Positions 32,762 to 64,000 of a stretch of DNA of 64,000 bases are shown piece by piece. This DNA is from Paramecium tetraurelia (lineage: Eukaryota): contig CT867997.1 of assembly GCA_000165425.1 (NCBI GenBank), forward strand, positions 434,001 through 498,000, read 5' to 3'. Made by a program: the position numbers and the translations under genes. The notes below the pieces were generated by a model that was not told the DNA's origin, made no database searches, and worked only from the letters and a program-made list of their open reading frames with translations. The stretch's first letter is position 1, and every line of letters begins with the position of its first letter.

Positions 32762-34995
32762 ATGAGTGAGTATACATAATTTTGAGTATAAATGAAAGAT
32801 CTATTATAGTATAAACAAACTCATATTAATTTTTGGGTTTTTTTGTGAATCAAAAAATATAAGAATTTTACAGTTTAAAAGTGGGGTGGTGCTTATGATA
32901 TAATAATAGTCACACTTAAATAAAATTCTTATAAATAGGAAATGGTCTAAAACTATTGAACACTGAAGATCTTATAAGAAAATTGAAATAAAATAAATAG
33001 TATTATGATTAATAATAATTTATTATGATTAACTCTTAATCAGTGCCTAATCTTTAAAATTCAAGTGCATAACCAATAAGTGAACCAACTTTGGAGTAAA
33101 TTAATAAAAAGTAGTATGGAGATACTTTGCGATAGTAAATTGAATAAAAGAAGATAAGAGAGTAGTAAGAGAAAATTTAAGAACGACTTATGGTTATTAA
33201 TTTTAAGTTATTAGCTAGGAATTATAATTGTAAAATCAACTAAATGGTTAAGCAAGAGGAGGAGGAGGTGCTCCATTACGAGATTTTTATGGAAATATAA
33301 CTGTAAATAATAACATTGTGTTTAGACAACCAGAAGAAATCCTATGGACCCTAATTCGTCATCAGCTTAAATTTTCGGTCAATCTAATTCATCTGTTTAA
33401 TTCAATTAACCGGATTATTTAAGTGCTAGTCAATTACCTATTTAAACACAAAGACTAGTAACTACAAACCAAAGTATGATAAATCTGCCCACTTAAAATA
33501 ATGTAAGATATTTTTATATTCAGAGTATGAATCAAAGTTAATTAAGTCAAATTGGAGAATAGATAGCTTAGGCAGAAAAAAAATAAAAATAATTTGTTTT
33601 ATAAAGAGAATTACTAACATAAATTGAAATAGCAGAGAAAAAGAAGTAAGAAGAGAAATAAAGAATAAAGAGAGACAAAGAATTAGATGACTTAAGAATA
33701 TTAAGAGAAAGGGAAGAAATAGAAAGAAGAATGAAAGATGAATTTGGAATTGATAAATTGGAAAAAAGAAATCTTCAATAATCAAATTTTGATGTTGATG
33801 GTTTAAAAGCATTAAAAAGGTTGGAAATGTTAAGATACTAAAACGAATTAATTGAATAACAAAATAGAAAAAATGCTAAAACAGGAGTCAGACAAAGAAC
33901 TCCTGTTTAAGAAGCTGAAAAAGCTTATAGAGACTAAAAGAATGACATCCTGCAGTCTAGAATCGAATAGAGAATTATCAAAGAGTTACCTATTGAAGTT
34001 GAAAAGACTGTGAGAGATACAGTAAATGTTGAATTACATAGATTGAGATAAGAAATGAATCTTCAAACTAATTAAGTATCTGAATAGGTAGTTTCATTAA
34101 AGAGTCAATTAATGAAAGCAAACGAATAGAGACACTATAACGAAGAATAAATCAGAAAACTAAAAGAAGAACTAAGATCAACCTAAATCATTGATGAAAT
34201 TCGATAAAGAGAATTATATTAAGCATTTCAGAATTAAGAAAGGACTAGATAAATAATAGAAACAGCTTAAAGATAAAAAACACCAGATGCAATAAAATAT
34301 GCATTTCCAAGAAGATAAAAATTAAATTCCAACCCATACGACCCATTCCTAGGAAGTAACGAAGATGTCAATAAAGATTTATATGAAATAATCACAGACA
34401 ATACTTAAATTGGTCCTGCATCTTAAGATTTTTAAAAAGGATATAATCTATAAACAAAAGAGAAGAATTAAGATCAAAGACTATAAACTGAAGAAGACCA
34501 TACAATAATTAATCATAGAATGGGCTCAGAAATAAGGCATAATGAGTTTGATTTACCTGAAGATTATCTAAATCGTTAATAATTGTATATTGCTAAAAGT
34601 TATTTGGATTCTAAGCCTGTTAATAATTATGATTATACAAAAATAGAAAATAATTCAATTATTCCAAAATCAGATTATGTTTCTTTGATTAGTAATACCC
34701 ATCCTTATTACATGCAAGAATAGGATGAAGTTAAAGATGTAATTTAAAGATATTCTAGTATTTTATTTAGTTTATATCTATTTTAGATAAACTTGATAGA
34801 TTAGAAGATATAGATCTTTTATAATAAAAGAGAGACTTTAATCAAATGGACTATGCATTATAAGATTTATTGGATTAGTAAAGTAATAAAATAAATAAAC
34901 ATGAATATATCAATGACCCTATTGAATATAATGATTATTATTCAACTGATTACTAAGAAACAAATTTTTATAATAAAATGAATAAATTATCTTGA
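32762..34995 (+). CDS. CSPP1/CCDC66-like centrosomal or ciliary coiled-coil protein
   Basis: YGDTLRQQIEQKK...RGGGGAPLRDFYGN resembles the CSPP1 GGGGAPLRD motif; start uncertain. Confidence 0.6.
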
Positions 34996-61446: not shown

Positions 61447-62988
<1,542 letters not shown>

Positions 62989-63015
62989 ATCCCCTGGCCT
63001 TAATGGCTAGGGGAT
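62989..63015 (+). promoter_or_regulatory. 11-bp RNA hairpin immediately after the stop codon (SRE-like candidate)
   Basis: ATCCCCTGGCC-TTAAT-GGCTAGGGGAT: 10 Watson-Crick pairs plus one G:U, GC-rich within an AT-rich context. Confidence 0.65.
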
Positions 63016-63104
63016 GTTTTAAGCAGAAACTCCGCCTAACCTTTAATAGAAGTATTCTGAGACTGATTTCGAGGAAGGAAGACATTTGTTTGTTTTGAAT
63101 AAAG

Positions 63105-63168
63105 AACAAACTTAATGAAACATTTATTGGAAATAAAGCATCGATAAATGTTGAAAAAAGATGTTTTT
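63105..63168 (+). promoter_or_regulatory. Eukaryotic SECIS element (type I-like)
   Basis: ATGA core at 63115-63118; helix II ACATTTATTGG / TCGATAAATGT (11 bp); apical loop starting AAA at 63131; 3' TGAA at 63152-63155. Confidence 0.9.
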
Positions 63169-63277
63169 TGGATTTGAAATTTGTTAAAGAGTATTTCTCA
63201 AAAATATATATTCAACTTTTAGATTAAAGATATAAGGATATTAAAGATAATAATTATTTTAAGGACAACAAAATGAT

Positions 63278-64000
63278 TCAATTTAATAGTTTTCCTAGTT
63301 CTTTTCTTCCTTAAATAACTAAATTGTGTTGATTTCCCAATTCTCCAAATATTTCTATTAACTTTTTTTAAGCCTTCTTGTCAGCCCAATTCTTATCCTT
63401 TTTAACAATCTAAAATAACTAAGTAAATTACAGTTAGAAGTGATTTAATAGCCAATTCATTGTTTTTTATACTAAGAGCTTCCAAAGCCAAGTCAAAATA
63501 TAGATCATAATTTTCAGGATTGTCATTTATTCGTACTAAAATATTTTCGATTTCAGGAGTCATGGATTTTATTTGCTTAACAAGTTTATATTGATCTTAG
63601 ACTAATTAATATAATTATTTTGTATTCATGTCTTCTAAATCATCTTTGTATTGTTTATCGAATAAATCTAAAGTTTCTTAGATTTTATTTAAATCTTCCA
63701 TCAAAACATATGCTAGTGCTTTGAATAATAAATATTTTGGATGTTCCTTTTTAACGTTATCTCTTGCCAATGCCTCAGTCGTTAAAGTCATTAATCCTTA
63801 ATAATTCTTGCTATCAAACAGTTGAGCCATTTGTTCCAATATCATTTGTTCAACGTTTTCACCTCTCAATATTCTTGATATTTATTCGACGATAGTCATA
63901 AATCTATCAAACTTTCCATTCTTGAAATATCCATCAACAAATTAGTTATTGTATACCACACCTGCAAAGGGCACAGAATTAATTTACAATTGAGTGATCA
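63278..64000 (-). CDS. CnoX/YbbN-like thioredoxin-TPR chaperedoxin (5' end outside window)
   Basis: LQINSVPFAGVVYNNQFVDGY (end of a Trx fold), MAQLFDSKNYQGLM, and C-terminal IVKKDKNWADKKAQKKLIEIFGELG...GRKELGKLLN*, matching the YbbN TPR tail pattern. Confidence 0.75.

What the first reader, a model, noticed from the sequence alone, without database searches (positions are those of the whole stretch)
62971..63168. Two UGAs one codon apart with opposite meanings in a genome whose only stop codon is UGA
Seen: the TrxR gene ends TGC TGA GGT TGA, with a SECIS about 130 nt downstream. Known: animal-type TrxRs end Gly-Cys-Sec-Gly, and in code 6 UAA/UAG encode Gln, so no other stop is available. Inference: the ribosome must insert Sec at 62980 and terminate at 62986, although both codons are nearly the same distance from the SECIS. 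That implies a local discrimination mechanism. Readthrough of the second UGA would add about 24 residues (up to the TGA near 63058) and bury the redox tail.
Basis: partly seen in the sequence, partly recalled or inferred. Interest (0 to 1): 0.75.

Follow-up and report, generated by a model that had tools for sequence, protein, structure and literature searches.

The report
Paramecium selenoprotein gene: Sec-UGA beside stop-UGA
A Paramecium thioredoxin reductase gene ends Cys-UGA-Gly-UGA, so the first UGA should be read as selenocysteine and the second as stop, and an unusually strong RNA hairpin right after the stop is a testable candidate for telling them apart.

Summary
The gene (ATG 61447, three tiny introns, genetic code 6) is an animal-type thioredoxin reductase. 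Its largest exon is 100% identical to a Paramecium tetraurelia protein. It ends GGT TGC TGA(62980) GGT TGA(62986). A canonical type-1 SECIS (core 63115-63154) sits about 130 nt downstream, at the tip of a 151-nt structured arm.

The situation itself is known. Code-6 ciliates use UGA both as the only stop and for Sec, and Tetrahymena has three Sec-containing TrxRs. The public Paramecium gene models, however, stop at the Cys codon.

New here: an 11-bp, GC-rich hairpin (62989-63015) is by far the strongest local fold in the 64 kb. It starts 6-7 nt after the Sec UGA and 0-1 nt after the stop UGA. That matches the placement of the known Sec redefinition elements of SELENON and SELENOS.

My reading is that the hairpin boosts Sec insertion at the first UGA only, and that termination at the second UGA is the default. 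This is inferred. No orthologous DNA could be fetched, so conservation is untested. "A local mechanism is implied" is plausible, not compelled.

The parts
61447..62988 (+). Thioredoxin reductase gene (code 6), from ATG to the terminating TGA. Exons: 61447-61688, 61714-61879, 61904-62896, 62923-62988.
   Evidence: Translations. PDB search: thioredoxin glutathione reductase, TrxR2 and TrxR1 at E 1e-125 to 1e-114. Pfam Pyr_redox_2, Pyr_redox and Pyr_redox_dim. CVNVGC redox centre in exon 1. Exon 61904-62896 is 331/331 identical to P0128, P. tetraurelia GSPATT00004919001.
61689..61713 (+). Intron 1, 25 nt, GTA...TAG
   Evidence: It restores the frame and the conserved ...EAGW... join. The Paramecium protein P0003 reads EAGWVDTQ across it.
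61880..61903 (+). Intron 2, 24 nt (a multiple of 3, with no in-frame TGA)
   Evidence: An 8-residue gap falls exactly here in the alignment to solved TGR structures. The public Paramecium proteins lack these 8 residues.
62897..62922 (+). Intron 3, 26 nt, GTA...TAG
   Evidence: Its removal gives ...[26 protein letters not shown], identical to the tail of P0128.
62980..62982 (+). First UGA: inferred selenocysteine codon (penultimate residue, Gly-Cys-Sec-Gly)
   Evidence: Its position matches the Sec of animal-type TrxRs (established knowledge). A SECIS lies downstream. 13 of 13 full-length aurelia-complex homologues are annotated as ending ...KEGC, that is, at this codon.
62986..62988 (+). Second UGA: inferred true stop codon, followed by A
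   Evidence: Sequence. Sec-containing TrxRs end GCUG, so the tail needs to be C-terminal (established knowledge).
62989..63015 (+). 11-bp GC-rich hairpin with a 5-nt loop; candidate Sec redefinition element (SRE-like)
   Evidence: In a 30-nt sliding fold of the whole window it scores -22.3 kcal/mol. The next best is -12.3 on the + strand and -13.5 on the - strand elsewhere; mean -1.33, sd 1.66. On the - strand the same place scores only -16.9, because one G-U pair is lost. z = -4.4, with 0 of 300 shuffles as good. It is intact when the Sec UGA is in the A site (-21) and reduced to between -5 and -10 when the stop UGA is there.
63016..63030 (+). Small 5-bp hairpin abutting the big one
   Evidence: Minimum-free-energy fold. 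No independent support.
63048..63198 (+). 151-nt structured arm carrying the SECIS at its tip: 34 bp of stacked lower helices plus a side hairpin at 63088-63111
   Evidence: -47.1 kcal/mol, z = -7.9, 0 of 300 shuffles as good.
63115..63154 (+). SECIS core: AUGA (63115-18), helix II of 11-12 bp, apical loop starting AAA, then GA (63153-54). Quartet UGAA/UGAA.
   Evidence: The same core motif (UGAN/KGAW; UGAA/UGAA in TtGPx10), an 11-bp helix II and the adenine triplet are described for ciliate SECIS elements in PMC7409322 (passages).
63058..63066 (+). Next in-frame UGAs (63058-60 and 63064-66, again one codon apart), at the foot of the SECIS arm. These end any readthrough product.
   Evidence: translation ...IEVF*D*F; helix list.

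Best explanation
This is the 3' end of a Paramecium tetraurelia selenoprotein gene, a high-molecular-weight thioredoxin reductase with the tail Gly-Cys-Sec-Gly. At the first UGA (62980), the type-1 SECIS in the 3' UTR (core 63115-63154) delivers Sec-tRNA in competition with the release factor. At the second UGA (62986), six bases on, termination wins by default.

I propose that the asymmetry comes mainly from the very stable hairpin at 62989-63015. With the first UGA in the A site, the hairpin is intact and begins 6-7 nt downstream, at the mouth of the mRNA channel. That is the placement of the functional Sec redefinition elements of SELENON (6 nt) and SELENOS (9 nt). Such elements hinder termination and favour Sec insertion. 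With the second UGA in the A site, about half the stem has already been unwound and the spacing is wrong, so that help is largely gone.

What is shown: the gene, the codons, the SECIS features, and the hairpin's existence, rarity, strand bias and spacing. What is inferred: actual Sec insertion, any effect of the hairpin, and efficient termination at the second UGA.

Sub-confidences: Sec-containing TrxR with UGA-Sec and UGA-stop, about 0.9. Hairpin as an SRE-like element that sets the register, about 0.4.
For: Identity as an animal-type TrxR comes (CVNVGC). The SECIS is the single pattern hit in 64 kb on both strands, with 0.04 expected at this helix length. The SECIS arm has z = -7.9.

The hairpin is the strongest 30-nt fold in the window by about 10 kcal/mol. 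It is stronger on the sense strand: -22.3 against -16.9. The stretch 62971-63044 is essentially the most GC-rich 74-nt stretch of the window: 0.50 against a mean of 0.27, and only 0.011% of windows reach that value. Folding by ribosome position gives about -21 kcal/mol at the Sec UGA and -5 to -10 at the stop UGA.

Precedents: SELENOS SL1 lies 9 nt 3' of a penultimate Sec UGA, raises Sec insertion only when close to the UGA, and was called the second functional SRE; the SELENON SRE lies 6 nt away (PMC3628699, abstract and passages; PMC8704476, passages).

The GC-then-stop end is conserved: 13 of 13 full-length aurelia-complex homologues from two paralogue clusters about 68-70% identical to each other. 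Ichthyophthirius, Cryptocaryon and Aristerostoma homologues also end in GC; 5 of the 7 proteins fetched do.
Against: No Rfam SECIS family matched, even at E<=10.

No orthologous or paralogous DNA could be obtained (searches found nothing). Conservation and compensatory changes in the hairpin and SECIS are therefore untested, and one sequence cannot show function.

A residual 4-6 bp stem still stands at the channel mouth when the stop UGA is in the A site, so the hairpin's effect need not vanish there.

PMC7409322 (passage) reports finding Sec-tRNA genes by similarity only in Tetrahymena species and Ichthyophthirius, and not in the other ciliates tested. The window holds no tRNA gene, which says nothing about the rest of the genome.

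From recall, not checked here: selenoprotein P reads UGAs one codon apart both as Sec, so closeness alone does not forbid a second insertion.

Public gene models end the protein at Cys. This is an annotation default, not evidence either way.
Confidence: 0.55

Rival explanations
1. There is no dedicated discrimination. Both UGAs face the same competition between the release factor and the SECIS machinery. Sec insertion is inefficient and non-processive, so chains that gained Sec at the first UGA nearly all terminate at the second. The hairpin and the long arm serve something else, for example compacting an unusually long 3' UTR so that the poly(A) end stays near the stop, or stabilising the mRNA.
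For: Competition with termination and a non-processive mechanism are the standard view. I saw only the title of Nasim et al. 2000, in the reference list of PMC4967479. The stacked helices would fold most of the roughly 210-nt UTR into a few compact units. PMC4967479 and PMC6879139 (passages) stress short 3' UTRs and closeness to the poly(A) end for termination in ciliates.
Against: It leaves unexplained why the strongest hairpin in 64 kb, in the most GC-rich stretch, sits exactly 6-7 nt after the Sec codon. There is no backup in-frame UGA for 23 codons, although tandem stops are over-represented in code-6 ciliates (PMC6879139, abstract and passages).
Confidence: 0.3
2. The second UGA is also decoded as Sec at an appreciable rate, giving a functional isoform extended by 24 residues.
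For: Both UGAs lie at a permissive distance from the SECIS (129 and 135 nt). The extension ends in two in-frame UGAs.
Against: The extension sequence is dictated by the hairpin and other UTR stems. Its codons include CCC, GGG, GCC and TCC in a genome that is 27% GC. A GCUG tail that is not C-terminal is unknown among TrxRs (established knowledge).
Confidence: 0.05
3. The gene no longer makes a selenoprotein. Translation ends at the first UGA as annotated (protein ending ...GC), and the SECIS is a relic.
For: All public models end at Cys. One paper found no Sec-tRNA by similarity in ciliates other than Tetrahymena and Ichthyophthirius (PMC7409322 passage). Rfam SECIS models do not match.
Against: A relic would not keep a perfect UGAA/UGAA quartet, an 11-12 bp helix II, an AAA loop and a 151-nt arm with z = -7.9. 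The GGT codon and the second TGA are still in frame. Lineages that give up Sec usually replace it with Cys rather than truncate the tail (established knowledge).
Confidence: 0.07
4. The second UGA is removed by splicing of a 27-nt GT...TAG segment (62984-63010), so the mRNA has only one UGA near the end.
For: The segment has the size of a Paramecium intron, starts GT, ends TAG, and is a multiple of 3.
Against: It starts GTT, whereas 3 of 3 introns in this gene start GTA. Splicing would bury GCUG under 17 further residues. The segment forms most of the stable hairpin.
Confidence: 0.02

Closest known systems
Tetrahymena thermophila Sec-containing thioredoxin reductases (TTHERM_00047660, _00486500, _00823430)
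   Same: A code-6 ciliate in which UGA is the only stop and also the Sec codon, with TrxR homologues carrying an in-frame UGA and a SECISearch-positive 3' UTR (PMC2612030 Table 2 and passages; PMC1557398 passages).
   Different: A different genus. I did not see their stop-proximal UTR sequence, so whether they carry the hairpin is unknown. The passages I read do not discuss the two-UGA problem.
SELENOS SL1 and SELENON SRE (Sec redefinition elements)
   Same: A stem-loop 9 nt (SELENOS) or 6 nt (SELENON) 3' of the Sec UGA. In SELENOS the Sec is penultimate, followed by Gly and a stop, and the stem-loop opens the 3' UTR, which is the layout seen here. SL1 helps only when close to the UGA (PMC3628699; PMC5133445 passage; PMC8704476 passage).
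   Different: In SELENOS the stop is UAA, so no second UGA has to be read differently. Those elements have conservation and mutational support; this one has neither yet.
Mammalian TXNRD1, TXNRD2, TXNRD3 and schistosome TGR
   Same: The same fold and the same Gly-Cys-Sec-Gly end (E 1e-125 to 1e-114), with a SECIS in the 3' UTR.
   Different: Human TRs have type II SECIS elements (PMC3737529). From recall, their stops are not UGA. The SECIS here is type 1 on a long three-way arm.
Euplotes crassus TR1 and TR2: one codon, two amino acids
   Same: A ciliate TrxR in which identical UGAs in one mRNA are read differently, governed by the 3' UTR and SECIS and by position. Sec insertion is limited to about the last 20 codons (PMC3737529, whole-text parts 1-2).
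   Different: There UGA means Cys or Sec and is never a stop. The discrimination was mapped at UGA positions tens to hundreds of codons apart, not two codons.
Condylostoma magnum and Parduczia UGA 'triality'
   Same: UGA serves as stop and as Sec in the same transcriptome, and a TrxR with a penultimate Sec is the example shown (PMC4967479 figure legends).
   Different: There UGA is also Trp, termination depends on closeness to the poly(A) end, and the SECIS follows the Sec codon almost directly. Here the SECIS core is about 130 nt away.

Membership tests
High-molecular-weight (animal-type) selenoprotein thioredoxin reductase | Class I pyridine nucleotide-disulphide oxidoreductase fold with a dimerisation domain, closest to TrxR/TGR rather than glutathione reductase | tested here: met
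   Pfam PF07992, PF00070 and PF02852. In the PDB search, TGR and TrxR score 1e-125 to 1e-105 against glutathione reductase at 1e-61 or weaker.
High-molecular-weight (animal-type) selenoprotein thioredoxin reductase | N-terminal redox-active CVNVGC next to the FAD site | tested here: met
   Exon 1 translation reads [13 protein letters not shown].
High-molecular-weight (animal-type) selenoprotein thioredoxin reductase | C-terminal Gly-Cys-Sec-Gly encoded by GGN TGY TGA GGN followed by a stop | tested here: met
   GGT TGC TGA GGT TGA at 62974-62988, in frame after the third intron.
High-molecular-weight (animal-type) selenoprotein thioredoxin reductase | Selenium actually incorporated at the UGA | not testable with these tools
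   Needs 75Se labelling or mass spectrometry of the C-terminal peptide.
Eukaryotic SECIS element | AUGA ... GA non-Watson-Crick quartet (UGAN/KGAW) | tested here: met
   AUGA 63115-18 and GA 63153-54, giving quartet UGAA/UGAA. The motif definition is taken from PMC7409322.
Eukaryotic SECIS element | Helix II of about 9-13 bp leading to unpaired AA(A) in the apical loop | tested here: met
   11-12 bp helix; the loop begins AAA.
Eukaryotic SECIS element | Helix I below an internal loop | tested here: met
   Two alternative folds both provide it: 63077-87 paired with 63159-69 in the global fold, or 63100-13 paired with 63157-72 in the local fold. Which one forms is open.
Eukaryotic SECIS element | Match to the curated Rfam SECIS covariance models | tested here: not met
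   No SECIS family at gathering score or at E<=10 on 62800-63500. The Tetrahymena genome paper likewise called most of its Rfam SECIS (RF00031) hits false positives and noted that high AT content may affect accuracy.
Sec redefinition element (SRE) | Stable stem-loop starting about 6-9 nt 3' of the Sec UGA | tested here: met
   The stem starts at 62989/62990, a spacer of 6-7 nt; -21 kcal/mol.
Sec redefinition element (SRE) | Phylogenetic conservation of the stem, with compensatory changes | not testable with these tools
   No ciliate DNA other than the window was reachable; both genome-contig scans were empty.
Sec redefinition element (SRE) | Raises Sec insertion or lowers termination at the adjacent UGA | not testable with these tools
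   Needs reporter assays or ribosome profiling.

The most novel reading that the evidence does not exclude
The hairpin acts as a codon-level ruler. In organisms whose only stop is UGA, a stop-proximal SRE-like stem gives the distant SECIS single-codon resolution, so that Sec and stop can be written with the same triplet six bases apart. If so, every GCUG-type TrxR of code-6 ciliates (Paramecium, Tetrahymena, Ichthyophthirius) should carry a stem at the same spacing. It would work by resisting the release factor's pull on the mRNA only while the stem is still intact at the channel mouth.
Probability: 0.3. Interest if true: 0.75.

Novelty: new member of a known kind. Interest (0 to 1): 0.5.

Why it matters
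How a ribosome decides between Sec and stop at a UGA is still only partly understood. This gene is a natural experiment with the tightest possible design: the same codon, the same mRNA, the same SECIS, six bases apart, opposite outcomes, and no alternative stop codon available to the organism. The hairpin found here turns the puzzle into simple tests, namely comparing 3' UTRs across Paramecium paralogues and species and moving or breaking the stem in a reporter. There is also a practical point. Public Paramecium, Ichthyophthirius and Cryptocaryon TrxR models stop at Cys, so these selenoproteins are annotated without their catalytic Sec. Such genes would also be miscounted as having a 'tandem stop' in surveys of ciliate termination.

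Tried and rejected
Rfam: whole window at gathering score and 62800-63500 at E<=10. No SECIS family matched. The only hit over the hairpin was a terminator-like bacterial sRNA model at E = 0.19, taken as meaningless.

tRNA scan of the window: no tRNA genes, so no tRNA-Sec here. This says nothing about the genome.

Orthologous DNA: a protein-based scan (68 pattern matches, 0 confirmed) and a degenerate DNA pattern scan (0 matches) of genome contigs. That collection holds only bacteria and archaea, and I was hoping for host contamination. Covariation in the hairpin and SECIS therefore stayed unchecked.

Stop-codon context (+4 base) of Paramecium genes from the window. With TGA as the only stop, 143 overlapping ORFs of 150 codons or more appear in all frames. 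Two self-trained codon-score filters kept only 1 and 2 candidate gene ends. No usable sample resulted, so I make no claim about UGA-A versus UGA-G preference.

Hairpin as a second, stop-adjacent SECIS: rejected. There is no GA after its 3' arm, and my scan found only the 63115 element.

A 27-nt GT...TAG 'intron' spanning the second UGA: considered and judged unlikely (see rival explanations).

Howard et al. 2005 and 2007 (PMC1142574, PMC1869034) are not held. SRE facts are taken from papers that cite them.

Lobanov et al. 2007 (PMC2375036): no mention of Paramecium in the held text, and figures are not held.

In searches I found no paper in the held library that describes Paramecium TrxR as a selenoprotein, its SECIS or this hairpin. 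The library lacks most subscription journals.

Full report
OBSERVATION. The sequence at 62974-62988 reads GGT TGC TGA GGT TGA. The window is 27% GC, and TAA/TAG occur in frame throughout the gene, so code 6 applies.

The gene starts at ATG 61447. It has three tiny introns: 61689-61713 (25 nt), 61880-61903 (24 nt) and 62897-62922 (26 nt). With these removed, the reading frame runs without any TGA up to 62980. It ends ...[33 protein letters not shown]. Reading through the second TGA would add 23 sense codons up to TGA 63058, followed by another in-frame TGA at 63064.

IDENTITY. The large exon matches solved thioredoxin glutathione reductase and TrxR2/TrxR1 structures at E 1e-125 to 1e-114. Glutathione reductases score far lower, 1e-61 or weaker. 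Pfam finds Pyr_redox_2, Pyr_redox and the dimerisation domain. Exon 1 carries the CVNVGC redox centre. An 8-residue gap in the structural alignment falls exactly on the 24-nt intron.

The best database relatives are Paramecium aurelia-complex proteins. Exon 61904-62896 is 331/331 identical to the P. tetraurelia protein GSPATT00004919001. All 13 full-length aurelia-complex homologues in two clusters end ...KEGC at 486 residues. Eight are in the 90% cluster and five are in a paralogue cluster about 68-70% identical to it. The public models therefore take the first TGA as the stop and omit Sec-Gly. Of the 7 homologues fetched, 5 end in GC, including Ichthyophthirius, Cryptocaryon and Aristerostoma. 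The other 2 do not: a 475-residue P. sonneborni protein of a different type, and a model that ends early at ...IHPTIAEV.

SECIS. No Rfam SECIS model matched, either at gathering score or at E<=10. A pattern scan of my own required four things: [AG]TGA; a helix of 8 bp or more directly after it; AA 9-13 nt from the core; and GA after the helix. It found exactly one site in the window on both strands: ATGA 63115-18, a 12-bp helix including one G-U pair, a loop beginning AAA, and GA 63153-54. Simulated sequences gave 0.81 hits per window for helices of 8 bp or more, and 0.04 for 11 bp or more.

The quartet is UGAA/UGAA. That fits the UGAN/KGAW core, the 11-bp helix II and the adenine triplet described for ciliate SECIS elements (PMC7409322, passages). 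The element sits at the tip of a 151-nt arm (63048-63198) with 34 bp of lower helices and a side hairpin. The arm folds at -47.1 kcal/mol, z = -7.9. A more conventional local fold with a contiguous helix I is also possible. The core lies 135 nt from the first TGA and 129 nt from the second.

The base right after the stop opens an 11-bp, GC-rich hairpin with a 5-nt loop (62989-63015). In a 30-nt sliding fold of all 64 kb on both strands it is the strongest structure by a wide margin: -22.3 kcal/mol, against -12.3 for the next best on the + strand, with mean -1.33 and sd 1.66. It is stronger on the sense strand than on the antisense strand (-16.9) because one pair is G-U. That points to a role in the RNA.

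The 74 nt around it (62971-63044) are essentially the most GC-rich 74-nt stretch of the window: 0.50 against a mean of 0.27.

The stem begins 6-7 nt after the Sec codon. Assume 5-7 nt of mRNA lie in the channel beyond the A-site codon. Then the hairpin is whole (about -21 kcal/mol) when the first UGA is being decoded, and reduced to between -5 and -10 kcal/mol when the second is.

MECHANISM. Shown: the codons, the enzyme family, the SECIS features, and the hairpin's rarity, strand bias and spacing. Inferred: everything about what the ribosome does.

The best-supported reading is ordinary SECIS-dependent recoding at the first UGA and default termination at the second. The hairpin would act like a Sec redefinition element. 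Functional SREs lie 6 nt (SELENON) and 9 nt (SELENOS SL1) after the Sec UGA. SELENOS has the same layout as this gene (penultimate Sec, Gly, stop, then the stem-loop), and SL1 works only when close to the UGA (PMC3628699, abstract and passages; PMC8704476 and PMC5133445, passages). A stem that helps only at one spacing would give the first UGA an advantage that the second lacks.

The main rival is that no discrimination is needed. Sec insertion is inefficient at each UGA, so double insertion is rare, and the structures would serve UTR compaction or stability instead. The other rivals are an extended isoform, loss of Sec use, and splicing out of the second UGA; I rate these as unlikely for the reasons given under rival explanations.

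WHAT IS KNOWN. UGA as the only stop and also the Sec codon was reported for Tetrahymena in 2006 (PMC1557398, passages). Three Tetrahymena TrxRs with an in-frame UGA and a SECIS were re-annotated in 2008 (PMC2612030, Table 2 and passages).

Position-dependent reading of identical UGAs in ciliate and mammalian TrxR mRNAs, set by the SECIS and 3' UTR, is documented. The positions tested lay 15 or more codons apart: codons 498 and 483 both accepted Sec in human TR1, and Euplotes TR1 restricts Sec insertion to about the last 20 codons (PMC3737529, whole-text parts 1-2).

Condylostoma uses UGA as Trp, stop and Sec, with a TrxR as the example (PMC4967479, figure legends).

I found no paper in the held library on Paramecium TrxR as a selenoprotein or on this hairpin. 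Subscription journals are mostly not held, and figures and some supplements were not visible.

LIMITS. Conservation of the hairpin, its spacing and the SECIS is therefore untested. My attempt to derive the usual stop-codon context from the window failed. One paper reports not finding Sec-tRNA by similarity in ciliates other than Tetrahymena and Ichthyophthirius. I could not check the Paramecium genome for the Sec machinery.

VERDICT. The gene is a further member of a known class, the Sec-containing TrxRs of code-6 ciliates, and is under-annotated in public records. The two-UGA puzzle is genuine but not new in kind. The hairpin is a new, specific and easily testable lead on how it may be solved.

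Noticed in passing
window 62977-62988; proteins P0128, P0003, P0004, P0006, P0028, P0013: Public gene models of this TrxR end at the Cys codon, so the Sec-Gly tail is missing from the records. This holds for P. tetraurelia and its relatives (13 of 13 full-length aurelia-complex homologues). The Ichthyophthirius, Cryptocaryon and Aristerostoma homologues also end in GC.
   Followed up: partly
window 61880-61903: A 24-nt intron whose length is a multiple of 3 and which has no in-frame TGA, so retaining it would insert 8 residues without a stop. It is supported as an intron by the gap in the PDB alignment and by the public proteins.
   Followed up: partly
window 63058-63066: The readthrough frame ends TGA GAC TGA. 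This is a second pair of in-frame UGAs one codon apart, lying in the basal helix of the SECIS arm. It may be a backup stop that keeps stray ribosomes out of the SECIS, or it may be chance.
   Followed up: no
window 62984-63010: A 27-nt GT...TAG segment of intron-like size spans the second UGA and most of the hairpin. It starts GTT, whereas the gene's three introns start GTA.
   Followed up: partly
window 62800-63500 and whole window: Rfam's SECIS covariance models miss this AT-rich ciliate SECIS entirely, even at E<=10, although it meets the manual criteria. Scans that rely on Rfam would overlook ciliate selenoprotein genes.
   Followed up: yes
window 62980-62988, in relation to PMC6879139: With the public annotation (stop at the Sec UGA), the true stop looks like a 'tandem stop codon' at position +2. 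Mis-annotated selenoprotein genes could slightly inflate tandem-stop counts in code-6 ciliates (for the paper's method).
   Followed up: no
window 33879-33908: A near-perfect palindrome folds on both strands (-11.8 and -13.5 kcal/mol). It is the second or third strongest local hairpin of the window. I did not examine it.
   Followed up: no
window 63088-63111: A 9-bp side hairpin lies just 5' of the SECIS AUGA. In the global fold it makes a three-way junction in place of a plain internal loop. An alternative fold uses the same bases as helix I. Which one forms cannot be told from a single sequence.
   Followed up: partly
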